NCBI RefSeq assembly: GCF_000015945.1
Contig: NC_009033.1
Coordinates: forward strand, 690,001-722,000
Source: Staphylothermus marinus F1
GTDB taxonomy: Archaea; Thermoproteota; Thermoprotei_A; Sulfolobales; Desulfurococcaceae
DNA length: 32,000 nucleotides
Direction of reading: 5' to 3'
Shown here piece after piece: positions 14,327 to 29,112 of this stretch. Numbering within the stretch: the first letter of the stretch is position 1; each line of letters starts with the position of its first letter. The notes under the pieces were generated by a model. It saw nothing but the letters and a program-made list of their open reading frames with translations, did not search any database and was not told where the DNA came from. A program made the position numbers and the translations under genes.

Positions 14327-14336
14327 AGCGGTAAAA

Positions 14337-15338: not shown

Positions 15339-15422
15339 AACTATTCTCCCACCATATTCTTATTATGGCTACTACATTATTACTTCCCGGTTTAAAGTTA
15401 TTATTTGTGGTGAATAGATGAT

Positions 15423-16139
15423 ATGAAGCCTGCTCTTCTAAAAGATGTTGCAGGGGTTAGTGATCTAGTTATTGTAATGGGTGATCCTGATAGAGTATAC
15501 TTATTATCAACATTGCTGGAAAACCCCAAGATCATATATGATAGGAGAGGAATAGTTGTTGTTAATGGAGAATATAAGGGTAGAAAAATAACACTTGCCA
15601 GCCACGGTATTGGTTGTCCAATGGCATCAATTATATTGGAGGAACTGGGTATGCTTGGTGCTAAAACAATTATTAGAATAGGCACAGCTGGCTCACTTGT
15701 TGAAAACATTGGTTTAGGCGATATTGTGTTAGTAGCGGGGGCTGGGTACATGCTTAATGGGTGTGGAAACAATATGTATTCTCCCGAAATAAATGGAGGA
15801 ACAAGCCCAGATCCTCTACTGCTCAGCGAAATCTATCATTATTTATCACATTATAATATTAAGCCACATATTGGACTAGTATTTACAAGCGATGCATTCT
15901 ATGCGGAAGAAAATATAATTGATAAACTAACCAATAAAGGATTCATCGCTGTTGATATGGAGACAGCAATTCTATACATGCTTGGATGGATGAGGAAGTG
16001 GAGGACACTATCAATACTGGTAGTAAGCAACAGCCTCGTGAAGAAAACACCGTTGCTTACAACATATGAGCTCGCAGAGAAGTTTGTTGAACTAGCAAAA
16101 CTAGTATTAGAATATCTTGCAAGAAACACTCAGCACTAA
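15423..16139 (+). CDS. Nucleoside phosphorylase, PNP/UDP family 1 (uridine or purine nucleoside phosphorylase)
   Basis: 238-aa ORF with GDPDRV, SHGIGCPMASIILEEL, RIGTAGS and AVDMETA, the hallmarks of the DeoD/Udp family. Confidence 0.8.
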   Translation: MKPALLKDVAGVSDLVIVMGDPDRVYLLSTLLENPKIIYDRRGIVVVNGEYKGRKITLASHGIGCPMASIILEELGMLGAKTIIRIGTAGSLVENIGLGDIVLVAGAGYMLNGCGNNMYSPEINGGTSPDPLLLSEIYHYLSHYNIKPHIGLVFTSDAFYAEENIIDKLTNKGFIAVDMETAILYMLGWMRKWRTLSILVVSNSLVKKTPLLTTYELAEKFVELAKLVLEYLARNTQH

Positions 16140-16302
16140 ATACTGTGTTCACAAACACACAGACATACCTGATCCAGCAATGCTTTGGCTTAGATGATGC
16201 TTCAAAAAACTATCCAAGCCATTATTCTTCCCGAAACAATATTTTAGCTTTATATAAATAATACATGATTTATTAAAGATGATTAGTAATGGGTGAGGAT
16301 AT

Positions 16303-17541
16303 ATGAATTCACGTCATTGGCTCATGGTCGTGCTTGATACATTGCTTATAGCTGTTGGTCTAGGAACTCTTACTATGATGAGTGTTGCTAAGCCCGAGAT
16401 CATGTCTTTTTTCGGTGTTGATGAGAAACTATATGATCTACAATACATATCATATGCAGCCGGGCTCTTCGTAGCTTTTTTCCTCGGCCATACAAGACTG
16501 TATGAGGGGGGCTTTAAGAAGGATGTATTATTAGCTGTGAGCTTTGCCGCAATCCCACAGTTCCTGATCCCATTGATCAGATGGTGGAGCGTTGTTGTTA
16601 TTCTAAGATTCATACAAGGATTCATTCTCAGCCTCATACCATTATTCAGCGTGCAAGTGGGTAAGTATTTTCTGGCTGAGAGACCCTTTGCTAAAGGAAT
16701 AATATTATCAGGCATTTTCTGGGGAGGATTTCTAGGAGCATTTACTGCTGGATCCCTTATGCAACTAGTTGATTGGAGAACAACATTTATTTTAACAGCT
16801 GTTCTAATGTATGTGATGCTTATAATATGGTGGATTCCAGCAGAGGACTTCACATTAATACGTGAAAGCAGAGGAGAGAAAAGAACAAATAATGTTTGGA
16901 AAATAAAGTTTACATGGATTATGGGGTTCACGTTCTTTCCGGCTATATGGGTTATATTCACAATAGCGGGGTTCTCAGCATCTCTGGGATATAGTATTGG
17001 TTGGTCGAAGAGCCAAGTATCCATGATCAGTAGTCACCTCAACATTGCTTTAGCTATATGGTCAATAGTGTTCGGCTACATAGGATATCAGTTGTCAAAG
17101 AAAAACACTAGTCCACGAGGACTATTTAGGGCAATAATAATAGTTATGCTTATATCTTACACTTTGTCATTCATAGGCTTGCTCCTATACAGCTACGCCA
17201 TGCTCACTGGAAACTATGTATTAGCACTAATAACAGTCTGGATTGTTGGAACAATACAGGGTACAGGCCCAGCATTCTGGACAACAGCACCAGCGACTTA
17301 TCCGAAGGAAATATTTCCCAAAGCATCTTTCGCACTAGGCGTAATATCCAATGCACCAAACCTCATAGCTCCAACAATAACAGAGCTTCTAGCTCAGATA
17401 TCAAATATTCTAGCATTAAGCGAGTTAACAGCTATGCCAGTTATAGGAATAATAATACTAGTAATAACACTACATACTACGCTACCAATAGAAGAATTGA
17501 GAAAACAACTTCTACATCAACAAACCAATAAACAAGATTGA
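16303..17541 (+). CDS. Major facilitator superfamily transporter
   Basis: 412-aa ORF with about 12 predicted hydrophobic segments and a central hydrophilic loop (RESRGEKRTNN). The substrate is unknown. Confidence 0.7.
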   Translation: MNSRHWLMVVLDTLLIAVGLGTLTMMSVAKPEIMSFFGVDEKLYDLQYISYAAGLFVAFFLGHTRLYEGGFKKDVLLAVSFAAIPQFLIPLIRWWSVVVILRFIQGFILSLIPLFSVQVGKYFLAERPFAKGIILSGIFWGGFLGAFTAGSLMQLVDWRTTFILTAVLMYVMLIIWWIPAEDFTLIRESRGEKRTNNVWKIKFTWIMGFTFFPAIWVIFTIAGFSASLGYSIGWSKSQVSMISSHLNIALAIWSIVFGYIGYQLSKKNTSPRGLFRAIIIVMLISYTLSFIGLLLYSYAMLTGNYVLALITVWIVGTIQGTGPAFWTTAPATYPKEIFPKASFALGVISNAPNLIAPTITELLAQISNILALSELTAMPVIGIIILVITLHTTLPIEELRKQLLHQQTNKQD

Positions 17542-17625
17542 TAAGAAAAACAAAAACACTACTAGATCCTCTACAAGACTGAAAAATGTATTGATAAGGT
17601 TTTCATGGTTTTTAGGCGATAATCC

Positions 17626-18786
17626 TTGGATCCGGTTAGAATAGCTAGAGAGTTGGTTAGGACTAGGAGTTTGTCTGGTATGGAGAGAGATATTGCTTAT
17701 TTAATAAAGGATCTTTTGAGTAGTAGTGGTGTTGATAACGTATTTATTGATAAGTATGGAAATATTATTGGGTATTTGAGAGGTGAAGGTAGGGGTATTC
17801 TCGTTTTTGAGGGTCACATGGATCATGTTCCTGAAGGAGATGCTAGGTATTGGAGCTATGATCCTTATGAGGCTGTAATTGTTGATGATAAATTATTTGG
17901 GCGTGGAAGTGTTGATATGAAATCTGCTATTGCAGCAATGATTTCTTCAATAAATAATATTAGGGGAAAAGATCTCCCAGACATATACTATGTCTTTGTA
18001 CCTTTCGAAGAAATATCTGAGGGAACATTGTTTAGGTTAGCATTAGAGGATACATTAAAGATTAGACCAGACCTAGTAGTTCTTGGTGAAGCAACTAAGC
18101 TGAATGTTCATAGAGGTCATAGGGGTAGGAGTGTTTGGAGAATAGTTTTAAAGGGTAGATCCTCGCATGCAGCAATGCCTGATGAAGCTGTGAACCCTAT
18201 ACATGCGCTATCATCGTTCATTATTGAGCTAGGTAAGAAACAATTACCTAGACATGAAGTACTGGGTAAAAGCACTCTTACTCCAACAATAATAGATTGC
18301 AACCCTAAATCAACACCATTAATACCTGATACATGTGAGGTATACATAGATTATAGAATGATTATCGGGGAAAAAGAGGAATTGATCAAGAAGAACATTG
18401 TAGATGTATTGGAGAAGCTGAGAAACAATAAGCTACTAATCGACTACATTGTTAACATAAATAAGGGTGTTGCCAAGATGTGGACAGGAGTTTCGATAAC
18501 GTATAGAGATTATTATCCCGCATGGCTCAACAATGATGAGAAAACATTAATGAGTACATTGAGAATTATTAGAAAACATAATCCCAAAGCATCTATTAGT
18601 ATTTGGAGATTCAGCACCGATGGAGTCTACTCAGCTGGACAAGCAGGCATCAACACCATAGGCATTGGTCCAGGAGATGAAATACTAGCACATAAACCAA
18701 ATGAGCATGTTTCTATAAAGGAAATTATACAAGCATCAAAGATCTATAGCGACATAGTTTTAGAGTTTAGAAGTATAGTCCGATGA
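17626..18786 (+). CDS. M20 family metallopeptidase/deacylase (ArgE/DapE/LysK-like)
   Basis: 386-aa ORF with a TTG start. The motifs FEGHMDHVP, GRGSVDMKS and GEATK are metal ligands and catalytic residues of the M20 family. Confidence 0.8.
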   Translation: MDPVRIARELVRTRSLSGMERDIAYLIKDLLSSSGVDNVFIDKYGNIIGYLRGEGRGILVFEGHMDHVPEGDARYWSYDPYEAVIVDDKLFGRGSVDMKSAIAAMISSINNIRGKDLPDIYYVFVPFEEISEGTLFRLALEDTLKIRPDLVVLGEATKLNVHRGHRGRSVWRIVLKGRSSHAAMPDEAVNPIHALSSFIIELGKKQLPRHEVLGKSTLTPTIIDCNPKSTPLIPDTCEVYIDYRMIIGEKEELIKKNIVDVLEKLRNNKLLIDYIVNINKGVAKMWTGVSITYRDYYPAWLNNDEKTLMSTLRIIRKHNPKASISIWRFSTDGVYSAGQAGINTIGIGPGDEILAHKPNEHVSIKEIIQASKIYSDIVLEFRSIVR

Positions 18787-19630
18787 ATATTCCTGTTGAA
18801 GTTATTATTGTTCCTAGGTATGTTTTTGGTGATGGTTTTTCTCCTGCTATGTATTTGGCTAGTATTCTTCCTAGGACTGGTGTTAGGCTTGTGGCTAGTA
18901 CTGTTGCTGAGACTCCTATTGTGTTGATTGCTGTTAGGAAAAGCGTCATTCCGATGCCGAATCCTATTCCTCCGGTGATAAATGCTGTTATTTGAACTTC
19001 TTTGTCGAGAAATACTTTTTTTACAGAATTATATGTTATTGGGAGGAGTGATATTGTTGTAGATAAGTTTCTTAGTAGAGCAATTGTTACTGGATCACCA
19101 TAGTTTAATGCGAGCTTGCTGAGAGTAGCACCCATACCCCAAGATAACGCTGCTCCAAGAGCTGCTAGGAAACCTATGATTTTTATATCGTTTCTCTGCC
19201 CACTATATACGAGGTAGACTCCTATAATGGCAATAAATGATCCTAGAATCAACTGTATCCTTAATTGTTCACCATATAGTAAATAAGAGTAGAGCTGTGC
19301 AAAGAAAATGTAAGTATAAGATATTGATACAGCGTTTCCCCCACCAATATGTTTAATGCTGTGAATATATAGTGTATCGCCTAGTAAGGGACCGAAGAAA
19401 GCACTTATATAAACTATGAGAATTCCTTCAGGAACAAACCATCTATCATTAATTGTTAGGAGAAAAATAAAGAATAAAACAAATACTGCATGAAGACTCC
19501 TCAACATATTCAATGTTATAGCATCTACTCCCTTACCATATCTACTTATCAATCCTGGAGATAAGCTCCATATAGAACTAGCTGTTAAAGCAGATAAAAC
19601 ACCAATTACTTCCATCTGCATAACCATCAC
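18767..19630 (-). CDS. EamA/DMT superfamily transporter
   Basis: 287-aa ORF with 10 hydrophobic segments in two EamA-like halves. Its 3' end overlaps the M20 gene convergently by 20 nt. Confidence 0.75.
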   Translation of the reverse strand: MMVMQMEVIGVLSALTASSIWSLSPGLISRYGKGVDAITLNMLRSLHAVFVLFFIFLLTINDRWFVPEGILIVYISAFFGPLLGDTLYIHSIKHIGGGNAVSISYTYIFFAQLYSYLLYGEQLRIQLILGSFIAIIGVYLVYSGQRNDIKIIGFLAALGAALSWGMGATLSKLALNYGDPVTIALLRNLSTTISLLPITYNSVKKVFLDKEVQITAFITGGIGFGIGMTLFLTAINTIGVSATVLATSLTPVLGRILAKYIAGEKPSPKTYLGTIITSTGIFIGLYF

Positions 19631-19631
19631 A

Positions 19632-20282
19632 TCAACATCTTCGATACAAGATTATTTTTGGATTATCTGAGATTACTGCATCAACACTTAGGTTCTCAAG
19701 TTTACATGCTGTAGCTGTGTCGTTAACTGTCCAAGCATAAACAATATAGTTATTACTATGCAGTGTATCTATAAGCCAATCCTCTATAAAAGCATAGTTT
19801 ATTGAGACTCCATCAGCGAGGGAATCACTTATTATATCAATAATGCTTATTGGTAAGGAATCAATGCTTACTAGTGCTTTATAATTTGTAGTTTCCTTCA
19901 CGTATCTAATGGCGAAATGGTCTTTGGAGGTGAAAATAATGCTGCGCGGAAGATTATTTAATTCTAAAATCCTAACTATGGTATTGATATCTTTTACGTC
20001 TAGAATCAGTTCTAAACCTCTCTTCCGTATAATTCCAAAAATATCTTCCAGCGATATGCTAAGTGATCTAATATATGGATCTCTATAGAAGAAACGGTAA
20101 TCAATCCAGCCCATAATCTTACCTAGCAAACTAGGCCTCACTATCGGGCTAGGACCATGCATAATCATTACTCTATTATTTTTAACTGAAACATCCACTT
20201 CTAAGCCATCAATATTCTTAAGTGTCAAATACTTTTTCAATACTAGCTTATTATTAGCTCTATGGCCGTAAATCTTCATCAA
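19632..20282 (-). CDS. Divergent glycerophosphodiester phosphodiesterase-like (GDPD fold) protein
   Basis: 216-aa ORF with IYGHRANNK, GLEVDV and YAWTVND, which align to GDPD motifs. The PEN(T/S) metal motif is absent and the FHD motif reads MHG. Confidence 0.55.
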   Translation of the reverse strand: MMKIYGHRANNKLVLKKYLTLKNIDGLEVDVSVKNNRVMIMHGPSPIVRPSLLGKIMGWIDYRFFYRDPYIRSLSISLEDIFGIIRKRGLELILDVKDINTIVRILELNNLPRSIIFTSKDHFAIRYVKETTNYKALVSIDSLPISIIDIISDSLADGVSINYAFIEDWLIDTLHSNNYIVYAWTVNDTATACKLENLSVDAVISDNPKIILYRRC

Positions 20283-20412
20283 TATCTCCCAAACAAATAT
20301 TCTCTCTTAAAGCGTCTTCGTAGACGCTACTGTGTTTTATCACTAGGTTTAAACCTCATTATTCCAATATTAATTATGCTGTATAATATGGCATTGTTAG
20401 GGAAACCTAACG

Positions 20413-20823
20413 GTGAAGCCTATGATCGGGTTGGAGAAAATAATAGAATATATATTATCGGAAACAGGATGCATACACCCATTCAAACTAAGCAGGATAA
20501 TAGCGTTGGCAGAACTAGAATACTATGAAGAATACGGTGAGAGACTAACAAATGCTGAATACAAGGGTTTCGACAAGGTATTCTATATAGAAGGAGTTAA
20601 GGAGTTATTTGAAAACAATAAATGCTTTAATAGACGAGAAGGAGATCCGGAAAAAGGTATTAAAGGATGCGTCGAATACACCTGTCAAAAACCAGTTATT
20701 CCAGAAAAGTATAGGCAGTTCATTGATAAAGCAATAGCGCAGGCAAAGAATCTTAGAGATGAAGAACTTAATGAACTAGTATTTAGAAACTCATTATTCA
20801 ATAAATTCTTACAATCAATGTAA
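20413..20823 (+). CDS. Hypothetical protein with 4 Cys residues, immediately upstream of the MinD-like genes (weak resemblance to the Panacea/DUF4065 antitoxin-type domain)
   Basis: 136-aa ORF, with a likely start at ATG 20422. The KLSRIIALAELEYYEEYGERLTNAEYKGF segment loosely resembles the KLxKLLY...G-x-plt-x-x-Y core of DUF4065. This is pattern memory only, with no alignment run. Confidence 0.4.
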   Translation: MKPMIGLEKIIEYILSETGCIHPFKLSRIIALAELEYYEEYGERLTNAEYKGFDKVFYIEGVKELFENNKCFNRREGDPEKGIKGCVEYTCQKPVIPEKYRQFIDKAIAQAKNLRDEELNELVFRNSLFNKFLQSM

Positions 20824-20861
20824 GTCTTGAACGACAATCACATGCGAATGGTGGAAGAGAT

Positions 20862-21748
20862 ATGCGAAAACAAATAACTGTTACTGGGGGTAAGGGGGGA
20901 CAGGTAAGAGCTTTGTAGCAACTAATTTAGCAGTCTTATTATCAGATAGATACCCCACTGTACTAGCCGATCTCGATCTAGAGGCCCCAAATGATCATAT
21001 ACTACTTGGAGTAGAGAAACTAGAGAACGAAGAACCTATCAAGGCATTCCTACCCTTCATAGATACGAAGAAATGTACAAGATGCGGTGTATGCGCGAAA
21101 ATATGTGATACTGGAGCAATACTTATGCCACCAAATAGTCTCCCAGTAATATTTCCTAGATTATGTGGTGGATGCAAAGCATGCTACTATGCATGTCCCT
21201 ACAATGCTATATTGAAGGGATACCATGTACTAGGCTATAGCTATGTGACAAAAGTCACCATAGATAATCATAGTTTCATACTTGTCACCGGCATATTGAG
21301 GGAAGGAGAAGAACATACCCCGCCAGCAGTGGTTGCTACTAAGAATAGAGCTAAAAAGATTGATCATGAATTAATGATTGTAGATACTGGGGCGGGAACA
21401 GGTAACCAGATATCAATAGCGCTTCAAGGATCAGATCTAGTCATAGCTGTAACTGAAGCAACCCCGCTGGGACTACATGATCTCGAATCAATATTGAAGG
21501 TTACAAGCGATATGGACTTAGAAACAATAGTTGTAATCAACAGGTATGGTTTAGGCAGAATCGACAAACACGTGGAGACTATGAAGAAATATAGTGTGAG
21601 AACGTATTTTAAAATACCATACCATGTCGATGCTGTTGAATCATATATTAAAGGAAAACCAATTGTTATATACAAGCCTGACTCAATTGTTTCTAAGAGC
21701 ATTCATCAAATACATGAATACATTGTTAAGGAGTTGCTTGGGAAATGA
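20862..21748 (+). pseudogene. MinD/ParA-superfamily P-loop ATPase with an inserted 2x[4Fe-4S] ferredoxin domain (COG1149-like), frameshifted inside the Walker A codons
   Basis: From ATG 20862 the frame reads MRKQITVTGGKGGQVRAL and then a stop. The +2 frame opens at 20894 as GGTGKSFVATNLAVLLSDRYPTVLADLDLEAPNDH...CTRCGVCAKICDTGAI and runs into the 207-aa ORF (CGGCKACYYACPYNAI, DTGAGTG). One extra G in the G6 run at 20894-20899 would restore GKGGTGKS. Confidence 0.75.
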
Positions 21749-22734
21749 GTAGTGGAGGACTCGAAATAGTTGTGGCAAGTGGTAAGGGAGGAGTTGGAAA
21801 ATCAACAATAACATCTTCATTAGCACTAGTCTTAGCTGAGAAAAAACTTGATTTCATAGCCGTAGACGCTGATGCTGAAGCTCCAAACCTAAACATTGTT
21901 CTAGGAATAACTAATTGGGACGAGATAGAACCATATTATGAAGGCAGATACGCTGAGATCGTACAGGAGAAATGCATTAATTGTGGAGAATGTATGAATG
22001 CATGTCCATTTAACGCTGTTGAGCTTATCAATAATAAATATGTTATTAACAAATGGATATGTGAAGGCTGCTATACATGCAGCTTTGTATGCCCTACAAA
22101 AGCTATAAGAATAATCAGGGATATTGTAGCTGGCTATGTTAGAATAAAATATAGAACACCCTACGGATTCCCCCTCGTATCAGGCGAACTAGTGCCTGGT
22201 AGGCCTAACTCGGGTAAACTAGTGACCGAGGTAAAGAATAGAGCAAGGAAGATTGGTGGAAAAGATGCTATTCTACTAGTAGATGCTGCTGCAGGTATTG
22301 GTTGCCAAGTAATATCTAGTCTTGCCGGAGCACATATGGCGATCCTTGTAGCAGAGCCTACACCAGCTAGTCTAAGCGATCTCAAGAGAATACATAAATT
22401 AACAAAACACTTCATGATACCCTCCGCACTAATAATTAACAAATACGATATGAATCCAGAGTATTACGGGATCATTAAGGATTATGCTTTAAAAGAAAAC
22501 ATTGATTACCTAGGAGAAATACCCTTCGATGATCACATTGCTGAATCAATTGCAAACATGGAGCCACTACTAATAAAATATCCTGATTCACCAGCTGCAA
22601 CAGCTATAAGAAAGATAAGTTTGAAAATTATAGATATACTTGAGAACTATAGGGAATGGAGAATAAAGCATCTACCTCCAAAAATGGAGCCATTCATACC
22701 CATAGTTATAAAACCTAGAGAAACACATACATAG
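21745..22734 (+). CDS. MinD/ParA-superfamily P-loop ATPase with an inserted 2x[4Fe-4S] ferredoxin domain (COG1149-like), intact paralog
   Basis: 329-aa ORF. Walker A is ASGKGGVGKST and the ferredoxin motifs are CINCGECMNACP and CEGCYTCSFVCP. It also has DAAAGIG. Its ATGA overlap with the upstream paralog suggests translational coupling. Confidence 0.85.
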   Translation: MSSGGLEIVVASGKGGVGKSTITSSLALVLAEKKLDFIAVDADAEAPNLNIVLGITNWDEIEPYYEGRYAEIVQEKCINCGECMNACPFNAVELINNKYVINKWICEGCYTCSFVCPTKAIRIIRDIVAGYVRIKYRTPYGFPLVSGELVPGRPNSGKLVTEVKNRARKIGGKDAILLVDAAAGIGCQVISSLAGAHMAILVAEPTPASLSDLKRIHKLTKHFMIPSALIINKYDMNPEYYGIIKDYALKENIDYLGEIPFDDHIAESIANMEPLLIKYPDSPAATAIRKISLKIIDILENYREWRIKHLPPKMEPFIPIVIKPRETHT

Positions 22735-22742
22735 ATGAAAAG

Positions 22743-23081
22743 GTGGTCAACATGGTTAGAATAGCGTTTCCAACAGATAAGGGTGGATTAGATGATTACA
22801 TATATGATAGGTTCGGTAGAGCACCAACATTTACAATTATAGAAGTAGAAGATGGTGAAATTAAGAATGTTAAAATAATTGAAAACCTAGGACATCGAGC
22901 AGTTAGTGGTGCGGGAATAAAAGCTGTTCAGAAACTTATTGAGGAAAAAATAGATGTTGTTGCAGGACCCAATCCAGGCCCCAATGCATATATGGCTTTA
23001 CAACAAGCAAATATCAAGGTTATATCAATGCTTGGATTAAAAGTTAAGGATGCTATCGAACACGTGATTAAACAACTTTAA
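22743..23081 (+). CDS. NifX/NifB-C-terminal-like (dinitrogenase FeMo-cofactor-binding fold, COG1433) small protein
   Basis: 112-aa ORF, with a probable start at ATG 22752. RIAFPTDKGGLDDYIYDRFGRAPTFTIIEV...GAGIKAVQKLIEEKIDVVA matches the NifX/NafY-like domain pattern (hFG.a..f.i.d). Confidence 0.75.
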   Translation: MVNMVRIAFPTDKGGLDDYIYDRFGRAPTFTIIEVEDGEIKNVKIIENLGHRAVSGAGIKAVQKLIEEKIDVVAGPNPGPNAYMALQQANIKVISMLGLKVKDAIEHVIKQL

Positions 23082-23204
23082 AGAAACCTGTATCGACGCA
23101 AATATTTTTCGTAAGCATATAATTCTTAATATATACTTTATTTTTATAACTGAACAAGCCAATATAATTTCTCGAATAAATACATATTCAAGGTTGAATA
23201 AGCT

Positions 23205-24587
23205 TTGCCTGAATCATCCAAGATCAAAATAAGTATTATAGGTGCTGGTTCTGCTGTATGGTCTATTCCTGTATTAATAGATATAATGTTGAAGAAGAGC
23301 TTAGCTAATGCAGATGTGTATCTCATGGATATTGATCTTGACCGGTTAAAGCTTGTATATGGATTTGCTAAGAGATATGCTGAAGAAATACATTCAACAG
23401 TAAAATTTCACATGACCACTGATAGAGTAGAAGCGATTAGGGATGCTGATTTCGTAATAAATAGTGCTATGGCTATGGGTCATTCATACTATGAGAGAAT
23501 GAGGGAGATCAGTGAGAAACACGGATACTATAGGGGAATAAATAGTGTTGAATGGAACATGGTGAGCGATTATCATACTATTTGGGGATACTACCAGTTC
23601 AAACTCGCTATGAGTATTGCAAGGAATATAGAGGAGTATGCTCCAGACGCGTGGCTGTTAAATGTTGCTAATCCAGTATTTGAATTAACAACTCTAATTA
23701 GTAGAAAGACAAAAGTGAAAATGATCGGTTTATGTCATGGACATATGGGGTTCGAGAATGTTATACGAGAACTAAAACTTCCCAAAGATAAAGTAGAAGC
23801 TGAAATAATCGGTTTCAACCATGTGATTTGGCTAACAAAATTCAAAGTAGACGGTGAAGACGGCTATAAGTTCTTGGATAAATGGATAGTGACAGAAGCT
23901 GATAAGTACTGGAAGAAATGGAGAGAAACAACAGCTAACCCCTTCGACATAGACTTATCCCCCGCAGCCATAGACATGTATAAAAACTACGGCTTACTCC
24001 CAATAGGAGATACTGTTAGAGGAGGAACATGGAAATACCACTGGAACCTAGAAACAAAGAAGAAATGGTATGGACCATATGGAGGGCCGGATTCAGAAAT
24101 AGGTTGGGCAATGTATGTTGCTTTTCTGAAAATGAGACTATACGAAATCTACAAAGCTATAACCGATACATCAAGGCCTCTAACACTATTATTCCCGCCT
24201 AAACCCAGTGGTGAACAAGTTATTGAACTAATTGATTCCATGGTGACAGGTACACCTAGAACTTTTCAAGTCAATATATTAAATAATGGATCAATACCTG
24301 GTATACCAGATAATGTAGCTGTTGAAATGCCAGCTGTAATTGATGATAAAGGTGTTCATAGAAAAACATTCCCTCCATTACCATCGAAGATACAGAAATA
24401 TGTCATATATCCCAGAATGATGAGAATGGAATGGGCTCTCGAAGCCTTCCTAGAAGGTGGTAGAGATAAATTATTTGAGTGGCTAATCTATGATCCAAGA
24501 ACAAAATCTACTAGACAAGTAGAGGAAACAATAGATGATCTATTAAAAATGCCTGGAAACGAAGAAATGGCTAAACACTATTCATAA
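23205..24587 (+). CDS. Glycoside hydrolase family 4 (NAD+/Mn2+-dependent alpha-glucosidase/galactosidase-like)
   Basis: 460-aa ORF with a TTG start. It has the Rossmann motif KISIIGAGSAVWS, DADFVIN, LNVANPVFELT, GLCHG and GFNH, all typical of GH4. Confidence 0.85.
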   Translation: MPESSKIKISIIGAGSAVWSIPVLIDIMLKKSLANADVYLMDIDLDRLKLVYGFAKRYAEEIHSTVKFHMTTDRVEAIRDADFVINSAMAMGHSYYERMREISEKHGYYRGINSVEWNMVSDYHTIWGYYQFKLAMSIARNIEEYAPDAWLLNVANPVFELTTLISRKTKVKMIGLCHGHMGFENVIRELKLPKDKVEAEIIGFNHVIWLTKFKVDGEDGYKFLDKWIVTEADKYWKKWRETTANPFDIDLSPAAIDMYKNYGLLPIGDTVRGGTWKYHWNLETKKKWYGPYGGPDSEIGWAMYVAFLKMRLYEIYKAITDTSRPLTLLFPPKPSGEQVIELIDSMVTGTPRTFQVNILNNGSIPGIPDNVAVEMPAVIDDKGVHRKTFPPLPSKIQKYVIYPRMMRMEWALEAFLEGGRDKLFEWLIYDPRTKSTRQVEETIDDLLKMPGNEEMAKHYS

Positions 24588-24603
24588 AACATTAGGTGAT
24601 TTT

Positions 24604-25548
24604 TTGGGGCTGGAAATCTATACATTAGATGAGATAAGTTTAAGCAATAAAGAAGTATTGGAGATTCTAAACAAGATATTCGTTTATGACCATATAGATA
24701 TAGAGCTTTATAGGAGAACTATAGAATTAGATCCTAATCATTCAAATAATGAATTCTTCTTCTTCACTGAAAACAATGAAGTTATCGGAGTAGCTTACCT
24801 AGTATATTTAAAAGAAAAAACCAAATCTATCCTAGGCGGATTAAACAAGTATACTGATCATATATGGTTAAAATTGTTAGGTGTTGTTCCAGGAAAGGAA
24901 GAACTCCTAGAAAATATAATAGATTACATCGAAGATTATGCTGGAAGAAACAATAAAAAAATAATACACATATATGGGTATGCACCATTCTACTTTGCTC
25001 CAGGAATAGATCGTAGATACGAGATAATAAATAGGAAACTATTTGAGAAAGGCTATGAGTTGGAGAGCAAGGTTGTAAACTATTATGTTGACATGGATGA
25101 ATACTATGTTCCATTAGAAGCATTATGGCTACAAGAAAGAATTAGTAGGGAAGGATATGTTGTTAGGGAAACAGGGATTGATGAATATGATAGAGTGACT
25201 ACATGGATAAAAGAAAAATTCGGGATTATCTGGGGACTAGAATCGTTAATCACTAAAAACTATGAGTGCTCAGGGATCATTATAGTTGAGAATAAAGAGG
25301 AGGAAATAATAGGTTTTAATACTTATGGGGCATCTGCGCCTTACAGATATGGTCCTGTGGGTGTTTGGGAAAAGTATAGGGGTAGAGGGTTTGGAAAAAT
25401 ACTTCTCCACTATACACTAAATAAGATGAAGAAGCTTGGACTGCGCATAGTTGAGATTCCATGGACTACTCATTTATTCTACTATGCAGGAGTGCCTGGA
25501 CTATATAGGATTAGGTTGTTTAATATATATGTTAAAAAAATTAATTAA
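24604..25548 (+). CDS. GNAT-family N-acetyltransferase domain protein
   Basis: 314-aa ORF with a TTG start. The C-terminal half has the acetyl-CoA motif VGVWEKYRGRGFGKILLHYTLNKMKKLG (R-x-x-G-x-G). The N-terminal half is possibly a second degenerate GNAT-like domain. Confidence 0.7.
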   Translation: MGLEIYTLDEISLSNKEVLEILNKIFVYDHIDIELYRRTIELDPNHSNNEFFFFTENNEVIGVAYLVYLKEKTKSILGGLNKYTDHIWLKLLGVVPGKEELLENIIDYIEDYAGRNNKKIIHIYGYAPFYFAPGIDRRYEIINRKLFEKGYELESKVVNYYVDMDEYYVPLEALWLQERISREGYVVRETGIDEYDRVTTWIKEKFGIIWGLESLITKNYECSGIIIVENKEEEIIGFNTYGASAPYRYGPVGVWEKYRGRGFGKILLHYTLNKMKKLGLRIVEIPWTTHLFYYAGVPGLYRIRLFNIYVKKIN

Positions 25549-26735
25549 ATCCAAATTCTTCTTTTTTCAATTACTTCGCCGAAGAAAAACTTCATTTCTT
25601 CATCATTCATCAATGGATCATAATCTCCCGCAGTTTGTATTCTCGGCTCTACCCTTATTCTCTGCCCTTCTAATAATGCAGTTATTGCTTGGAGCTTGGA
25701 AATTATCCATGAGGTTTCCTCTAATAATTTCTTATTATTTATATTATTTATTTCATTTAGCATCTTCTTTAAGCGGGCAACATCGTTTTTACTTGGTACA
25801 TAGTCTCCTAATGGGTTGAAAGGTGACGCCTTATTTAATTCTATAAATAAACGCATTGTTTCATAGTATTCTTCTGGGTATAGGTGTTTGATTGCATTAG
25901 TAATTGATTCTTCAGGATCATAGTTTTGTTTTCTCCTATACATTTCAGCTAATGTATATAATGGGATTTTGGAGGCTTCAGCTTCTATCATTGGGTTAGC
26001 AACGTATCCTGATACATAGTTCCATATTTCTGGTTCTCTATTAGTGAAGGGGCCTAAGTGTAGTCTTGCAATACCTTTTAATAAGAAATAATCATTTACT
26101 GGGTAATTGTCCCAAATAAATGGTTTCCTCCCAGTGATCTCATGGAATCTCTTAACATCTTCTAATCTTATTTTTCTAGATACTATTGCTGGACCGGTCC
26201 ACATTATATATACGTTGTTCTCAAGCAGTGATCTGAGTTCTCTAAGATAGTCTTCTCTGAACCCCCAATAATATGTGGGGCAGAAAAACATGTTTTTAGG
26301 AGATAATTCATGGATAACATAGTTTACTAGATCAGCTTGTGCTTCGCCCAGTGTTTTATAGCCTTTGCCTCTAAGAACTGGAGGAATATCATCTAGGAAA
26401 ATAGCTATGTTGGTGAAACCTATCTCCATTAATCCCTCGAGTTTTAATATGATTTGTCTACGATCGTTTTTGTCCGAGTAATTAATTGTAAGACCTGGTG
26501 ATAATGCATATACTATTTCAACCCCCTTCCTATTACCAGCATCAATTAACTCCGTGAACATGTCTGTGTAGCTTCTAGGATAAGGTGTTCTCCAACGAGA
26601 TCGATGATAAGGATCCCATTTTGGACCATAAATATATATGTTCAATCCTATTTGTTGCATAAACTCGATCATTAATAACCTATCTATTTTATCCCATAAT
26701 GGACCATAGAAGCCTTCAACTACTCCAACATACAT
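25545..26735 (-). CDS. Glycoside hydrolase family 84 beta-N-acetylglucosaminidase (O-GlcNAcase/NagJ-like catalytic domain)
   Basis: 396-aa ORF with GVVEGFYGPLW, IYIYGPKWDPYHR, YALSPGL, the catalytic Asp pair in IAIFLDDI, FCPTYY, MWTGPAIVS, FIWDNYPVNDY and ANPMIEAE. These are collinear with the conserved blocks of human OGA and bacterial GH84 enzymes. Confidence 0.85.
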   Translation of the reverse strand: MYVGVVEGFYGPLWDKIDRLLMIEFMQQIGLNIYIYGPKWDPYHRSRWRTPYPRSYTDMFTELIDAGNRKGVEIVYALSPGLTINYSDKNDRRQIILKLEGLMEIGFTNIAIFLDDIPPVLRGKGYKTLGEAQADLVNYVIHELSPKNMFFCPTYYWGFREDYLRELRSLLENNVYIMWTGPAIVSRKIRLEDVKRFHEITGRKPFIWDNYPVNDYFLLKGIARLHLGPFTNREPEIWNYVSGYVANPMIEAEASKIPLYTLAEMYRRKQNYDPEESITNAIKHLYPEEYYETMRLFIELNKASPFNPLGDYVPSKNDVARLKKMLNEINNINNKKLLEETSWIISKLQAITALLEGQRIRVEPRIQTAGDYDPLMNDEEMKFFFGEVIEKRRIWI

Positions 26736-26743
26736 GTTATCGC

Positions 26744-27562
26744 CTAAATATACTCGGTAAAGGGTACAGCATGTAATAGTATTGTCGGAACAAGCTTGAC
26801 TGCGTCAGCGTATTCAACATTTATTTTTCTCCCATAGATTGCTCCTAATATACGTATGAGGGCTTCAATAAGCATCCATGATTCTTTAAATTGTGATTCA
26901 TGTTTCCTTAATGCTTCCAGTTTTTTCTCAATAACATCTGTTATATCTATATACATGTTTGGTCTCGAAGTATAATAGTAGGCTATATATCTTATGCTAT
27001 GTGGAGATAAACCCGTCTCTAAGTCTACACGATTATATAGGGGCATCCCCGAGAATATTGCGGCTGTTGATGCTGCTCTCCCAGTATTTAAATGATCAGG
27101 ATGGGCTTCATAGGGTAGAGAAGGATCAGGAGCTAACACTATATCTGGTTTGAGAAGCCTATATAGTGTTACAAGCTTGTTTATTACCTCATAACTATAT
27201 GGTAGTTCTCCATCAGGATAATTTAGCCAATAAATATTCTTAACGCCTAAGACCTTAGCAGCTTCTTCCTGCTCTCTTTTCCTAATTAATGCTACCCTAC
27301 CCCTCGTCATTCTTGGATCACGTGTTCCTCTGGAACCATCAGTCATTACTACTAAGTATACATCCTTGCCTTTTCCAGCATATTTAGCGATTAACCCACC
27401 CACTCCTACTTCGCAATCATCTGGATGTGGTGAAATACATAGTATTTTACGAGCATTATCGAATGCTTGATCAAAGTCCTTTGCAATATATTGCTTCACA
27501 ATAGTCCTGTATACTTCTTGTTCCGGTAATTGCTTTATTAGCTGGAGAATTTCAGACATCAC
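26744..27562 (-). CDS. PIG-L/LmbE-family N-acetylglucosaminyl deacetylase
   Basis: 272-aa ORF with the zinc-binding signatures ISPHPDDCEVGVGG and HPDH typical of the PIG-L family. The family includes the diacetylchitobiose deacetylases of Thermococcales. Confidence 0.85.
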   Translation of the reverse strand: MMSEILQLIKQLPEQEVYRTIVKQYIAKDFDQAFDNARKILCISPHPDDCEVGVGGLIAKYAGKGKDVYLVVMTDGSRGTRDPRMTRGRVALIRKREQEEAAKVLGVKNIYWLNYPDGELPYSYEVINKLVTLYRLLKPDIVLAPDPSLPYEAHPDHLNTGRAASTAAIFSGMPLYNRVDLETGLSPHSIRYIAYYYTSRPNMYIDITDVIEKKLEALRKHESQFKESWMLIEALIRILGAIYGRKINVEYADAVKLVPTILLHAVPFTEYI

Positions 27563-27587
27563 ATTAATTCACCTATACACTATACAA

Positions 27588-28877
27588 TTATTTTTCTATG
27601 GGGTACTTAGTAAATATTAGTGCTGCAGGTATTAGTAGTAGTGCTCCAACAACATATACGAGGCGAATGCCTAGATCATTGCCTGGAGCATAACCGAATA
27701 CTCCTAGTAGAAACGATACTGTTACACCAGCTATTCCAGCCATTGTCTTAGTTATTAGTCCTTGTGTTCCAAAATAAATTGCTTCTCTACGATAACCAGT
27801 TATTTGTTCATCAACATCGGTTATGTCAGCGATGATTGCGTTTGGAAGCATTAGTAGTGGAGTAACAAATGCTCCTGCTATAACGCCTGTTATTAGCAAG
27901 TATATTTGGGGATCAATTGGTACATAGCCTATGAAGGCAATCATTAGTGTTGGTATGAGAAATAATAGCATACCTAACAAGTATACTTTCTTCTTACCAA
28001 TTGTTGATGCTAAATGTTTGTATATTGGTAGTGTTATTATTGAAACAATTATGAGTGGTAGATAGAATAGTGAAACATGTTCTTTTTCTAACCCAGCTGA
28101 AACAGTTACGGCATATGATAATGCCGTTTGCAACATTGTTGTTGAGAGTACTAGTAGTGCTGTTGGTACGAGGTATAGGAGAAATGTTTTATTAGTAGCT
28201 GTTATTTTTACTGCTTCCCACAAATTCATCTTAGTAGCTATTTTTTCAACAGACCTTATTCTCTCCTTAACACCTAGAACAATTGAAAACATAGCTGTTA
28301 TTCCTATCAGTGTAAGAACAATTGCAGTATTGAGGAAACCAAGTATTCCTAGGAGGATAGGTACTATTACACCACTAATAATTAGTGATACTTGGCTGAA
28401 GAATGCTTGGAAAGTTGATAATTTCACTCTATCCTCCTTAGTAGTAGCTATTTCAGGTAATAATGCGAGATATGGCGCAATAGCCGCTGTAAAGCCAAAC
28501 CAGAACACGCCGAGAAGTATAGCTGCATATAATACGTTTATTATAGATACCCCGTGAACAATCGGTATCCATATAAGGATCTGGCTAAGAGCCATCAATA
28601 TGAAGCCCATAACAATAAAGGGTTTACGCCTCCCCCACTTTGAAATTGTTTTATCGCTCCAATAGCCAATCAATGGATCAGAGACTGCATCTACAATTCT
28701 ACCAAACAATATAACGGCGCCCATAGCAATGATCGGTGCTAAAGGCATTAATCCACTATTCTCTGGAGGAGAATAATAGTATAGTAACCACTGAACAATA
28801 AGTGCCGAACCAACACCCATAAGATTACCATAACCATAAAGCAGAGCTTTAAGAGAAGAAATCCTCTCCTCAGACAA
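27588..28877 (-). CDS. Glycoside-pentoside-hexuronide (GPH):cation symporter family transporter (MelB-like MFS)
   Basis: 429-aa polytopic ORF with the GPH loop motif DPLIGYWSDKTISKWGRRKPFIV (D-x-x-G-x-x-S-D-x-t-x-x-x-G-R-R-x-P). Confidence 0.8.
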   Translation of the reverse strand: MSEERISSLKALLYGYGNLMGVGSALIVQWLLYYYSPPENSGLMPLAPIIAMGAVILFGRIVDAVSDPLIGYWSDKTISKWGRRKPFIVMGFILMALSQILIWIPIVHGVSIINVLYAAILLGVFWFGFTAAIAPYLALLPEIATTKEDRVKLSTFQAFFSQVSLIISGVIVPILLGILGFLNTAIVLTLIGITAMFSIVLGVKERIRSVEKIATKMNLWEAVKITATNKTFLLYLVPTALLVLSTTMLQTALSYAVTVSAGLEKEHVSLFYLPLIIVSIITLPIYKHLASTIGKKKVYLLGMLLFLIPTLMIAFIGYVPIDPQIYLLITGVIAGAFVTPLLMLPNAIIADITDVDEQITGYRREAIYFGTQGLITKTMAGIAGVTVSFLLGVFGYAPGNDLGIRLVYVVGALLLIPAALIFTKYPIEK

Positions 28878-29034
28878 CTAAACCCCCCAACAGTCCCACA
28901 AAAGTTAAATAAATATAAAAAATAAAATTAAAATATTGCCATAAAACCCCACAGCCTCACCAAGTATTCTCCGCAAGAATTCAACGTAAAAATATAATAT
29001 CCTGGGAAAAATAGAACATAAAAGACATAAAGTT

Positions 29035-29112
29035 GGGCCCGTGGTCTAGCCTGGTTAGGACGCCGCCCTCACACGGCGGAGGTCCGGGGTTCAAATCCCC
29101 GCGGGCCCACCA
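29035..29112 (+). tRNA. tRNA-Val(CAC): tRNA-Val (anticodon CAC), intron-less, with encoded 3' CCA
   Basis: Manual cloverleaf: acceptor GGGCCCG/CGGGCCC, D arm GTCT-AGCCTGGTTA-GGAC, anticodon stem CCGCC/GGCGG with loop CT-CAC-AC, variable loop AGGTC, T arm CGGGG-TTCAAAT-CCCCG, discriminator A, then CCA. Confidence 0.92.

What the first reader, a model, noticed from the sequence alone, without database searches (positions are those of the whole stretch)
20413..23081. Co-directional module of two MinD-like ATPases with inserted di-cluster ferredoxin domains and a NifX-like protein, preceded by a small Cys-bearing protein
Four tightly packed same-strand genes form the module. There is a 38-bp gap after the first gene, an ATGA overlap between the two ATPases and an 8-bp gap before the last gene. 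Both ATPases combine a deviant Walker A (GKGGxGKS) with two CxxCxxCxxxC(P) motifs inserted after the P-loop. The last gene has the NifX/NifB-C-terminal cofactor-binding fold.

This organism shows no sign of nitrogenase in this window. The pairing of COG1149-type ATPases with COG1433-type proteins is known from comparative genomics of anaerobes and archaea, but to my knowledge it has no experimentally defined function. The domain logic is a nucleotide-driven dimeric switch, electron-transfer clusters and a metallocluster-binding carrier. That suggests an ATP-dependent metallocluster (Fe-S or more complex) assembly, insertion or repair machine. The upstream 136-aa protein with four Cys residues may be a client, a scaffold or an unrelated neighbour.
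Basis: partly seen in the sequence, partly recalled or inferred. Interest (0 to 1): 0.7.

Follow-up and report, generated by a model that had tools for sequence, protein, structure and literature searches.

The report
Archaeal orange-protein (ORP) cluster, one gene frameshifted

Summary
The four co-directional genes exist as described, with one exception. The window is Staphylothermus marinus F1 (Smar_0702 onwards).

- **Frameshift.** ATPase1 is not an intact ORF. After 18 codons, frame 0 stops at 20916-18, and the rest of the gene lies in the -1 frame. A single A is deleted inside the Walker A codons. The lesion is in the finished Sanger genome and in an independent read-set assembly. It is absent from S. 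hellenicus (92% identical protein) and from every other relative examined.
- **Identity.** The ATPase pair plus the NifX-like protein matches the Orp3-Orp4-Orp8 core of the Desulfovibrio ORP complex. In the literature these three co-purify, carry Fe-S clusters and have a "still unclear" role.
  - Across 36 bacterial and archaeal loci, 31 keep the order ATPase1-like then ATPase2-like, and 30 have a NifX-like gene within 3 kb.
  - Two loci carry bona fide MrpORP.
  - Natural fusions of the two ATPases are common.
- **Upstream protein.** It has a Panacea (DUF4065) fold with four invariant Cys. It is confined to the Staphylothermus clade and, wherever it occurs, lies immediately upstream of ATPase1.

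Verdict: a new member of a known kind, of modest interest.

The parts
20422..20823 (+). Small protein Smar_0702 (133 aa from ATG 20422; an alternative GTG start at 20413 gives 136 aa). Panacea/DUF4065 fold with four invariant Cys and one invariant His.
   Evidence: - The ORF is listed.
- Pfam SocA_Panacea scores E 0.0025, below the gathering cutoff.
- Only 6 homologues were found, all in the Staphylothermus clade.
- C17, C68, C83, C88 and H19 are invariant in 7 sequences.
- The AF2 model has pLDDT 92.9. Its best BFVD hit is a Panacea-domain protein (E 6.5e-4, TM 0.66/0.69, rmsd 2.5 A).
- The gene lies 22-50 nt upstream of ATPase1 in the window, L085, L003, L089, L090 and L091.
20862..20918 (+). 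5' fragment of ATPase1 in frame 0: 18 codons (MRKQITVTGGKGGQVRAL) followed by TAG.
20894..20900 (+). Frameshift site inside the Walker A codons. The sequence is G GGG GGA followed by CAG. Relative to S. hellenicus (GGGGGGAACAGG), one A is missing.
   Evidence: - The alignments are.
- Frame 0 and the -1 frame are both open only between 20894 and 20915.
20900..21748 (+). Remainder of ATPase1 (Orp3/Orp4-type paralogue 1) in the -1 frame: 282 codons plus stop. The ferredoxin motifs are at 21074-21106 and 21164-21196. The repaired protein is 295 aa.
   Evidence: -.
- The repaired protein matches Pfam CbiA (E 1e-16) and Fer4 (E 8e-13).
- It is 92% identical to the intact S. hellenicus ATPase1.
- About 120 relatives are 290-313 aa and full length.
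21745..22734 (+). ATPase2 (paralogue 2, 329 aa; ABN69807 / WP_011838998). Walker A is at 21781-21804, the ferredoxin motifs at 21973-22005 and 22060-22092, and the switch-II Cys187 at 22303-22305.
   Evidence: -.
- The AF2 model has pLDDT 94.6.
- The best PDB folds are MinD, FleN and FlhG, followed by NifH.
- Cys187 is invariant in 101 of 101 orthologues.
22752..23081 (+). NifX/NifB-C-fold single-domain protein (109 aa from ATG 22752, or 112 aa from GTG 22743; ABN69808). It is of the orange-protein/MTH1175 type, with no Cys and no Gly-rich tail.
   Evidence: - PF02579 scores E 6e-20.
- PDB sequence hits are MTH1175 1eo1 (1.5e-13), TM1290 1rdu (4e-11) and D. gigas ORP 2wfb (5e-10).
- The pI is 6.7 and there are 0 Cys.

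Best explanation
**What it is (shown)**
- This is the Staphylothermus marinus F1 copy of the core of the ORP ('orange protein') gene cluster of strict anaerobes.
- The core has two paralogous MinD/ParA-fold ATPases with a deviant Walker A. Each carries a 2x[4Fe-4S] ferredoxin domain inserted after strand 2. They are of the Orp3/Orp4 type.
- The core also has a single-domain IPR003731/PF02579 protein of the Orp8 / orange protein / MTH1175 type.
- A Panacea-fold Cys4 protein specific to the Staphylothermus clade lies directly upstream. Spacings of 38 nt, a 4-nt overlap and 8-17 nt, with GGTGG motifs before the internal starts, suggest co-transcription. The SD role of those motifs and co-transcription itself are inferences from the sequence.

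**How it most likely works (inferred)**
- The two ATPases form an ATP-dependent heterodimer, as in MinD or NifH.
- Nucleotide binding and hydrolysis gate electron transfer through the four [4Fe-4S] clusters. They may also gate docking of the Cys-less carrier, which holds an inorganic metal-sulfide species non-covalently.
- The result would be reduction, assembly or hand-over of that species.

**State in this genome**
- In S. marinus F1 a recent 1-nt deletion in the Walker A codons disrupts ATPase1.
- The module is probably crippled. Otherwise it runs on ATPase2 alone, or on trace full-length ATPase1 made by spontaneous -1 slippage on G GGG GGA.
For: **Identity**
- The NifX-like protein hits the D. 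gigas ORP structure 2wfb (5e-10) and MTH1175 (1.5e-13).
- NCBIfam MrpORP partially matches both the ATPases and the carrier.
- The literature describes Orp3 and Orp4 as two paralogues with two [4Fe-4S] ferredoxin motifs each. They co-purify with Orp8 and receive Fe-S clusters from MrpORP (PMC6345978).

**Conservation**
- Of 36 loci from Bacteria and Archaea, 31 have the order ATP1-like then ATP2-like. A NifX-like ORF lies within 3 kb in 30 and is adjacent in 17.
- MrpORP equivalogues above the curated cutoff sit next to the pair in L024 (557 bits) and L025 (510 bits), against a cutoff of 450.
- Frequent neighbours are DUF5320 (12), DUF134 (10), further PF02579 proteins (9), NifU_N (6) and FeoB (4).

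**Heterodimer**
- L030 is a natural fusion with the ATP1-like half first and the ATP2-like half second.
- About 33 of the best 150 cluster representatives are proteins of 550-710 aa with two matched stretches. I read them as fusions of the same kind, with ATP2-like in the C-terminal half.
- Each paralogue has its own invariant motifs.

**Fold**
- The ATPase2 model (pLDDT 94.6) is closest to MinD, FleN and FlhG, and next to NifH, Soj, Cfd1 and HypB.

**Frameshift is real, recent and lineage-specific**
- The Logan SRR4046664 contig is identical over 17,360 nt.
- The reference genome is finished Sanger sequence at Q50 (PMC2678158).
- ATPase1 is intact in S. hellenicus, L002, L003, L087, L089 and L090.
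- dN between the window and L002 is 0.107 for ATPase1 and 0.110 for ATPase2. The 282-codon -1 frame carries no second lesion.
Against: - No direct sequence comparison with DVU2103, DVU2104 or DVU2108 was possible. The sequences were not obtainable and Fievet 2011 is not held. Orthology to Orp3 and Orp4 therefore rests on architecture, the ORP structure hit and co-occurrence with MrpORP.
- The window lacks MrpORP, DUF134 and DUF5320.
- The mechanism is inference. No structure or activity of any ATPase of this family is known. The published hypothesis for ORP is a role in cell division.
- In the Staphylothermus lineage, ATPase1 has lost the switch-II Cys that both paralogues carry elsewhere. An interfacial metal site, if there is one, cannot be the same as in other lineages.
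- Both DNA data sets may derive from the same culture-collection strain. The deletion could be a laboratory-stock mutation and not the wild-type state.
Confidence: 0.7

Rival explanations
1. ATPase1 is kept functional by programmed -1 ribosomal frameshifting, or by transcriptional slippage, at G GGG GGA (20894-20900). That would be a recoding event inside the P-loop.
For: - In frame 0 the heptamer fits X XXY YYZ.
- A -1 slip allows perfect or wobble re-pairing of both tRNA-Gly. It yields exactly the ancestral GKGGTGKS.
- The downstream frame is intact and shows no excess dN.
Against: - The shift is not conserved. S. hellenicus and all other relatives are in frame, and S. hellenicus carries the same heptamer in frame.
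- There is no stimulatory RNA structure downstream (z = +0.9; 163 of 200 shuffles fold at least as well).
- Rfam finds nothing there.
- From general knowledge, heptamers with Y = G are poor shifters.
- The lesion is the loss of an A. The G-run length is unchanged.
Confidence: 0.07
2. The frameshift is a sequencing or assembly error, and the gene is intact.
For: The site follows a G6 homopolymer, which is an error-prone context.
Against: - The reference is finished Sanger sequence with 13.3x coverage at Q50.
- An independent SRA-derived assembly (SRR4046664) is 100% identical over 17.4 kb, including the site.
- The original GenBank annotation gave the gene no protein id. ABN69806, ABN69807 and ABN69808 are consecutive and skip it.
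Confidence: 0.03
3. The module is a MinD-like positioning or cell-division system with redox-sensing ferredoxin domains. On this view it does not handle metalloclusters.
For: - The closest solved folds and the best NCBIfam models are MinD, FleN and FlhG.
- The ORP literature proposes a cell-division role, based on morphological defects when the orp genes are off and on polar localisation of MrpORP (PMC8359166, PMC6345978).
Against: - The obligatory partner is a cluster-carrier fold protein. Recurrent neighbours are Mrp, NifU, FeoB and IssA-like proteins.
- The minD_arch model scores 96 and 53 bits against a cutoff of 201.75.
- No MinC, MinE or Cdv genes are adjacent.
- The authors themselves call the role unclear, 'directly or indirectly' in division.
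Confidence: 0.15
4. The upstream Panacea-fold protein is an independent antitoxin-like gene (PanA type), or a neighbour without a functional link to the ATPase trio.
For: - It has a Panacea fold and a weak Pfam hit.
- PanA proteins are promiscuous antitoxins in two-gene loci (PMC8832971).
- The gene has decayed to a 38-aa remnant in L002 and is absent in L087, while the trio stays intact in both.
- It is absent from all 36 distant loci.
Against: - Wherever it was found with flanking sequence (six distinct loci), it lies 22-50 nt upstream of ATPase1 on the same strand. At least three different upstream contexts are represented: GDPD, glycine-cleavage genes and MazE/PIN.
- Four Cys and one His are invariant, which is unusual for an antitoxin.
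- There is no candidate toxin other than the ATPase.
Confidence: 0.35
5. The last gene is a true NifX/NafY nitrogenase-cofactor chaperone, or an IssA thioferrate store.
For: It has the PF02579 domain. MTH1175, its best structural homologue, was used to model IssA (PMC5524996).
Against: - No NCBIfam NifX, NifB or NafY model is reached.
- There are no nif genes in the window.
- The protein has no cationic Gly-rich C-terminal tail, a pI of 6.7 and 0 Cys.
Confidence: 0.03

Closest known systems
[quoted passage not shown]
   Same: - It has two paralogous MinD-like ATPases, each with two [4Fe-4S] ferredoxin motifs, plus a single-domain IPR003731 protein.
- It is restricted to anaerobes.
- The gene clustering is the same. 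In bacterial loci carrying the same ATPase pair, MrpORP equivalogues are adjacent.
   Different: - The host is an archaeon, so there is no sigma54/OrpR control.
- No MrpORP, DUF134 or DUF5320 gene lies in the 32-kb window.
- There is an extra clade-specific Panacea-fold Cys4 gene.
- ATPase1 is frameshifted.
- ATPase1 of this lineage lacks the switch-II Cys.
- ATPase2 has a Pro-rich C-terminal extension in place of an evident MinD-type amphipathic helix.
- Direct orthology to the DVU proteins was not tested.
MinD / FleN / FlhG ATPases (e.g. A. fulgidus MinD, PDB 1hyq)
   Same: - They are the best structural matches (E 1e-14).
- They share the deviant Walker A with the signature Lys, and dimerise on ATP binding.
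   Different: - Identity is 16-22%.
- A ferredoxin domain of roughly 70-80 residues is inserted.
- The proteins score below the minD_arch cutoff (96 against 201.75 bits).
- There are no Min partners.
NifH / BchL / CfbC-type ATP-dependent reductases
   Same: - They share the SIMIBI fold.
- A Cys lies 7 residues after the Walker B Asp, the same spacing as NifH D125 to C132 (the NifH numbering is from memory).
- Electron-transfer clusters are combined with ATP hydrolysis.
   Different: - There is no counterpart of the second ligand, Cys97.
- The clusters sit in an inserted ferredoxin domain, so they are not bridged between subunits.
- PF00142 scores below its cutoff (23.3 against 25).
- There is no NifD/K-like partner.
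Mrp/NBP35/ApbC Fe-S carriers, including MrpORP
   Same: They have the ParA/NUBPL P-loop (PF10609) and are linked to Fe-S trafficking. In MrpORP the P-loop domain is fused to a PF02579 domain.
   Different: - The CxxC bridging motif is absent.
- ApbC scores 33-35 bits against a cutoff of 348.
- MrpORP scores 48-65 bits against a cutoff of 450.
IssA of Pyrococcus furiosus (thioferrate storage) and MTH1175/TM1290 single-domain proteins
   Same: They share the IPR003731 globular domain. MTH1175 is the top PDB sequence hit (1.5e-13).
   Different: - The window protein has no Gly/Arg-rich cationic tail.
- Its pI is near neutral.
- IssA-like tails do occur on NifX-like neighbours of the ATPase pair in 7 of 36 other loci.
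PanA (Panacea/DUF4065) antitoxins
   Same: The predicted fold of the upstream protein matches (TM 0.66-0.69) and there is a weak Pfam hit.
   Different: - It scores below the Pfam cutoff.
- It has an invariant Cys4 and His.
- The adjacent gene is a conserved housekeeping-type ATPase, not a toxin.

Membership tests
ORP complex / orp gene cluster | Two adjacent paralogous MinD-like ATPases, each with two CxxCxxCxxxC [4Fe-4S] ferredoxin motifs (Orp3 and Orp4) | tested here: met
   ATPase1 meets this only after repair of the frameshift.
ORP complex / orp gene cluster | Single-domain IPR003731/PF02579 protein homologous to the orange protein (Orp8) | tested here: met
   PF02579 scores E 6e-20. D. 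gigas ORP 2wfb scores E 5e-10 over residues 3-108.
ORP complex / orp gene cluster | MrpORP (Orp9) and Orp5/Orp7-type genes in the same cluster | tested here: not met
   - There is no further P-loop, DUF134 or DUF5320 gene in the window.
- MrpORP is present next to the homologous pair in L024 and L025.
- DUF134 and DUF5320 are frequent neighbours elsewhere.
ORP complex / orp gene cluster | Direct orthology to DVU2103, DVU2104 and DVU2108 (reciprocal best hits) | not testable with these tools
   The DVU sequences were not obtainable. Fievet 2011 is not held.
ORP complex / orp gene cluster | Physical Orp3-Orp4-Orp8 complex carrying Fe-S clusters | not testable with these tools
   There is only indirect support from natural ATP1-ATP2 fusions.
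MinD (cell division) | Score above the minD_arch/minD_bact cutoffs, no inserted domain, Min partners | tested here: not met
   TIGR01969 scores 96.2 and 53 bits against a cutoff of 201.75. A ferredoxin domain is inserted.
Mrp/NBP35/ApbC | C-terminal CxxC motif that bridges a [4Fe-4S] cluster, and a score above the model cutoff | tested here: not met
   - Outside the ferredoxin domain, ATPase2 has only Cys187 and ATPase1 has no Cys.
- ApbC scores 33-35 bits against 348.
NifH-type reductase | Two conserved Cys per subunit (equivalents of C97 and C132) ligating an inter-subunit [4Fe-4S] cluster | tested here: not met
   Only a C132-like Cys is present, and in this lineage only in ATPase2. PF00142 scores 23.3 against a cutoff of 25.
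NifX/NafY (nitrogenase cofactor chaperones) | Match to NifX/NafY/NifB equivalogue models and a nif gene context | tested here: not met
   The only NCBIfam hit is a partial match to MrpORP. There are no nif genes in the window.
IssA | IPR003731 domain plus a cationic Gly-rich C-terminal tail and a high pI | tested here: not met
   The protein is 109-112 aa, its maximal Gly fraction is 0.16, and its pI is 6.7.
Programmed -1 ribosomal frameshift | Slippery heptamer X XXY YYZ in frame 0 | tested here: met
   G GGG GGA lies at 20894-20900.
Programmed -1 ribosomal frameshift | Downstream stimulatory RNA structure | tested here: not met
   z = +0.9 against shuffles. There is no Rfam hit.
Programmed -1 ribosomal frameshift | Frameshift conserved in related genomes | tested here: not met
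   The gene is in frame in S. hellenicus, L002, L003, L087, L089 and L090.
PanA (Panacea antitoxin) | PF13274 match above the gathering score | tested here: not met
   The score is 19.1 bits against a cutoff of 25.7. The fold-level match is positive.
PanA (Panacea antitoxin) | Two-gene locus with a cognate toxin | tested here: inconclusive
   The conserved neighbour is the ATPase, and no known toxin domain is present.

The most novel reading that the evidence does not exclude
The Orp3/Orp4-type pair may be an ATP-gated electron-injection module. It would resemble a NifH- or activase-type reductase, but with the redox clusters held in inserted ferredoxin domains.
- It would reduce or mobilise an inorganic metal-sulfide species, such as thioferrate, a thiometallate or an Fe-S precursor. 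That species would be held non-covalently by Cys-less IPR003731 carriers.
- In the Staphylothermus clade, a Panacea-fold Cys4 protein has been recruited as a fourth, metal-binding or regulatory subunit.
- S. marinus F1 would then be a natural orp3-type knock-down, to be compared with the intact S. hellenicus.
Probability: 0.15. Interest if true: 0.65.

Novelty: new member of a known kind. Interest (0 to 1): 0.33.

Why it matters
- **Open question.** The ORP system is widespread in strict anaerobes. A search with ATPase2 finds 467 clusters at 50% identity with E <= 1e-30. Its physiological role has been unresolved since 2011.
- **A minimal version.** The Staphylothermus-lineage version is a stripped-down, thermostable three-gene core plus one clade-specific partner. 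That could make it a convenient target for structural and biochemical work.
- **A natural contrast.** S. marinus has ATPase1 broken, while S. hellenicus has it intact at 92-93% identity. This pair gives a natural experiment.
- **Annotation.** The RefSeq '4Fe-4S binding protein' of 207 aa is a fragment of a frameshifted gene. The names 'cobyrinic acid a,c-diamide synthase' and 'dinitrogenase iron-molybdenum cofactor biosynthesis' are misleading.
- **Limit.** Nothing here changes current understanding of the system.

Tried and rejected
It returned no Thermoprotei and many plain MinD genes (L041-L084). Only L005-L040 were informative.
2. The metagenome scan for the exact P-loop DNA, with or without the extra base, found nothing. 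No strain variants were obtained.
3. Three assemblies of S. marinus-like strains at 99.4-99.6% identity (L092-L094) all start downstream of the site. They are uninformative for the frameshift.
4. The search for a frameshift-stimulating RNA was negative, both by folding and against Rfam.
5. Fievet et al. 2011 (PMC3133258) is not held. The description of ORP was taken from later papers by the same group.
6. A literature search for COG1149 and COG1433 found nothing useful.
7. The afdb50 fold library was unavailable.
8. The PDB fold search for the small protein found nothing significant.
9. Phase variation by G-tract length was rejected, because both species have G6 and the difference is A versus AA.
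10. A nitrogenase-related role was rejected.
11. dS is saturated between the available relatives. dN/dS could not date the lesion and only dN was compared.

Full report
**Source and layout**

The window is Staphylothermus marinus F1.
- The 207-aa ORF at 21125-21748, ATPase2, the NifX-like protein and the small protein are exact matches to NCBI proteins of S. marinus on a 1,570,485-bp record. The accessions are WP_244372484, ABN69807, ABN69808 and ABN69806 (Smar_0702).
- A Logan assembly of SRR4046664 is 100% identical to window 11745-29104.

Four + strand genes lie between a divergent GDPD gene (19632-20282, - strand) and a GH4 glycosidase gene (23205-24587).
- a 38-bp gap,
- an ATGA overlap,
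- an 8-bp gap before GTG 22743.

ATG 20422 and ATG 22752 are the more likely starts of the first and last genes.

ATPase1 is frameshifted.
- From ATG 20862, frame 0 reads MRKQITVTGGKGGQVRAL and stops at 20916-18.
- The -1 frame is open from 20894 to 21748. It encodes the rest of a 295-aa protein, including ...TGKSF..., both ferredoxin motifs and the ATPase core.
- There is no in-frame start codon between 20894 and 21125. Without recoding, the only possible products are an 18-residue peptide and a 207-aa fragment without a P-loop, which is what RefSeq annotates.

The lesion is the loss of one A.
- S. hellenicus reads GGT AAG GGG GGA ACA GGT AAG AGC.
- S. marinus reads GGT AAG GGG GG-A CAG GTA AGA GC. 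The G-run is six bases long in both.
- L002 and L003 read GGA GGA ACT and GGA GGT ACT.

ATPase1 is intact in all relatives examined.
- It is intact in S. hellenicus (L085 and L086, 295 aa, 92% identical to the repaired S. marinus protein), L002, L003, L087, L088, L089 and L090.
- All other hits listed in the ATPase1 homology search are 289-313 aa.

The lesion is real at the DNA level.
- The reference genome is finished Sanger sequence at Q50 (PMC2678158).
- An independent read set assembles to the same sequence.

The lesion is recent.
- The 282-codon -1 frame has no second defect.
- dN to the 80%-identical relative L002 is 0.107 for ATPase1, 0.110 for ATPase2 and 0.18-0.22 for the flanking genes.

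Programmed recoding is unlikely.
- A -1 slip on the ancestral in-frame heptamer G GGG GGA would regenerate exactly GKGGTGKS.
- However, the shift is not conserved.
- No downstream RNA structure exceeds shuffled controls (z = +0.9).
- Rfam finds nothing there.
- I therefore treat this as a recent inactivating mutation that may be slightly leaky.

**What the genes are**

*The two ATPases*
- Both combine CbiA/ParA (NUBPL) P-loop domains with two Fer4 motifs.
- In a 150-sequence alignment, all eight ferredoxin Cys, both Walker A lysines and D41, D43 and D180 are invariant.
- The two paralogues have different invariant motifs. ATPase2 has PGRPNSGK and Cys187 in AGIGCQV. ATPase1 has EGEEHTPP and N or S at the Cys187 position.
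- In the wider family both paralogues carry that Cys, in DxPPGxxCPV. It is present in 32 of 32 ATP2-like and 26 of 29 ATP1-like sequences. It lies seven residues after the Walker B Asp. From memory, that is the spacing of NifH D125 to C132.
- The ATPase2 model is confident (pLDDT 94.6). Its best solved matches are MinD, FleN and FlhG (E about 1e-14), followed by NifH, Soj, Cfd1 and HypB.
- No solved structure contains the ferredoxin insertion.

*The carrier*
- The last gene is a PF02579 domain (E 6e-20).
- Its closest solved homologues are MTH1175, TM1290 and the Desulfovibrio gigas orange protein 2wfb (5e-10).
- It has no Cys, no Gly-rich tail and a pI of 6.7. It is therefore of the ORP/MTH1175 type, not the IssA or NifX/NafY type.

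**Conservation**

I examined 36 loci that carry a ferredoxin-inserted ATPase. They come from Thermoproteota, Methanobacteriota, Thermoplasmatota, Asgard archaea, Micrarchaeota, Chloroflexota, Bacteroidota, Desulfobacterota, Planctomycetota, Clostridia and other groups.
- 31 have the tandem order ATP1-like then ATP2-like.
- 30 have at least one NifX-like ORF within 3 kb, and in 17 it is adjacent.
- 12 have an additional Mrp-like P-loop gene.
- Two of those Mrp-like genes reach the curated NCBIfam equivalogue cutoff for MrpORP (557 and 510 bits against 450). Three others match the Mrp half of the model.

Other recurrent same-strand neighbours are DUF5320 (12), DUF134 (10), further PF02579 proteins (9), NifU_N (6) and FeoB (4). 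In 7 loci the NifX-like neighbours carry IssA-like Gly-rich tails.

Fusions of the two ATPases support a heteromer.
- L030 is a clean fusion, with the ATP1-like half followed by the ATP2-like half.
- About 33 of the best 150 cluster representatives from an exhaustive search are proteins of 550-710 aa with two matched stretches. In them ATPase2 matches the C-terminal half.
- This is Rosetta-stone evidence that the two paralogues work as a heteromer.

**Comparison with what is known**

The architecture is that of the ORP complex of Desulfovibrio vulgaris Hildenborough.
- Orp3 and Orp4 are 41% similar, and each has two [4Fe-4S] ferredoxin motifs.
- They 'systematically co-purify' with Orp8, the orange-protein homologue.
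- The purified holo-complex absorbs like an Fe-S protein.
- MrpORP (Orp9) transfers Fe-S clusters to it in vitro (PMC6345978).
- The orp operons are on only at very low redox potential.
- Loss of expression gives morphological defects.
- The A. fulgidus homologues AF2378-AF2380 are constitutively highly expressed (PMC3949148).

I could not compare directly with the DVU sequences. Membership rests on architecture, on the hit to the ORP structure and on co-occurrence with MrpORP.

**The upstream protein**

- Smar_0702 has only six detectable homologues, all in the Staphylothermus clade.
- C17, C68, C83, C88 and H19 are invariant.
- Its confident model (pLDDT 92.9) matches a Panacea (DUF4065) domain protein (TM 0.66/0.69). 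This agrees with a sub-threshold Pfam hit.
- It sits 22-50 nt upstream of ATPase1 in every locus where it occurs. Three different upstream contexts are represented.
- It is reduced to a remnant in L002 and is absent in L087, where the trio is intact.
- It is therefore a dispensable, lineage-specific and tightly linked gene. It may be an accessory or regulatory subunit, or a domesticated antitoxin-like protein.

**Mechanism**

*Shown*
- the domain composition
- the conservation of the ATPase and cluster-binding residues
- the paralogue-specific motifs
- the conserved gene order and the fusions
- the association with Fe-S trafficking genes

*Inferred*
- an ATP-dependent heterodimer
- ferredoxin domains that pass electrons to, or sense, a metal-sulfide species held non-covalently by the Cys-less carrier
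- control of docking or transfer by ATP hydrolysis

In S. marinus F1 the first ATPase lacks its P-loop unless rare slippage occurs. The module is probably impaired.

**Verdict**

- This is a new member of a known kind.
- Interest is modest and comes from three points:
  - the natural lesion,
  - the clade-specific Panacea-fold partner,
  - the compact thermostable version of an unresolved system.

Noticed in passing
window 3666-3775 (-): Rfam finds a tRNA spanning 110 nt (61 bits) that ARAGORN did not report. It is probably an intron-containing tRNA, which is common in Thermoprotei.
   Followed up: no
L092:1, L093:1, L094:1 (= window 20900, 21005, 21143): Three Logan assemblies of S. marinus-like strains at 99.4-99.6% identity all break within the first 280 nt of ATPase1. 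L092 starts exactly at the base after the G6 run. This could reflect strain heterogeneity at the site or a drop in coverage. None of the contigs shows the frameshift position.
   Followed up: partly
L030:5029-6897; P0255-P0297 and others: Natural fusions of the two ATPase paralogues, with the ATP1-like half first and the ATP2-like half second, are common. About 33 of the best 150 cluster representatives are 550-710 aa with two matched stretches.
   Followed up: partly
window 22303-22305 (ATPase2 Cys187); alignments A6 and the family alignment: Outside the Thermoprotei, a switch-II Cys seven residues after the Walker B Asp is present in nearly all members of both paralogues (motif DxPPGxxCPV). 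Thermoprotei ATPase1 orthologues, including that of Staphylothermus, have replaced it by N or S. This points to a possible interfacial metal site that has become asymmetric in this lineage.
   Followed up: partly
L015, L017, L019, L023, L024, L025, L032 (NifX-like ORFs near the ATPase pair): Seven of the 36 loci encode PF02579 proteins with Gly/Arg/Met-rich tails like that of the thioferrate-storage protein IssA. DUF5320, DUF134, NifU_N and FeoB are also recurrent neighbours. I have not seen a link between the Orp3/4-type ATPases and IssA-like proteins discussed in the papers I read.
   Followed up: partly
window 20862-21748: There is an annotation artefact. GenBank protein ids ABN69806, ABN69807 and ABN69808 skip ATPase1. 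RefSeq names the 207-aa tail '4Fe-4S binding protein' (WP_244372484.1). That fragment clusters at 90% identity with the intact 295-aa S. hellenicus protein WP_013142436.1.
   Followed up: yes
L089:7081-7987 (-): In one relative (GCA_053989495.1), a second PF02579 gene and an FMN-reductase/flavodoxin-like gene lie just downstream of the module on the opposite strand.
   Followed up: no
window 22679-22731 (ATPase2 C-terminus): Staphylothermus-clade ATPase2 proteins carry a conserved Pro-rich C-terminal extension (…REWRIKHLPPKMEPFIPIVIKP…). ATPase1 and the distant homologues lack it. Model confidence falls to 68-89 over this stretch.
   Followed up: no
window 2226-3479 (-) and 8291-9334 (+): A class-V aminotransferase of the cysteine-desulfurase family (Aminotran_5, E 1e-131) and a radical SAM protein lie 12-18 kb upstream. 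There is no evident link to the module.
   Followed up: no
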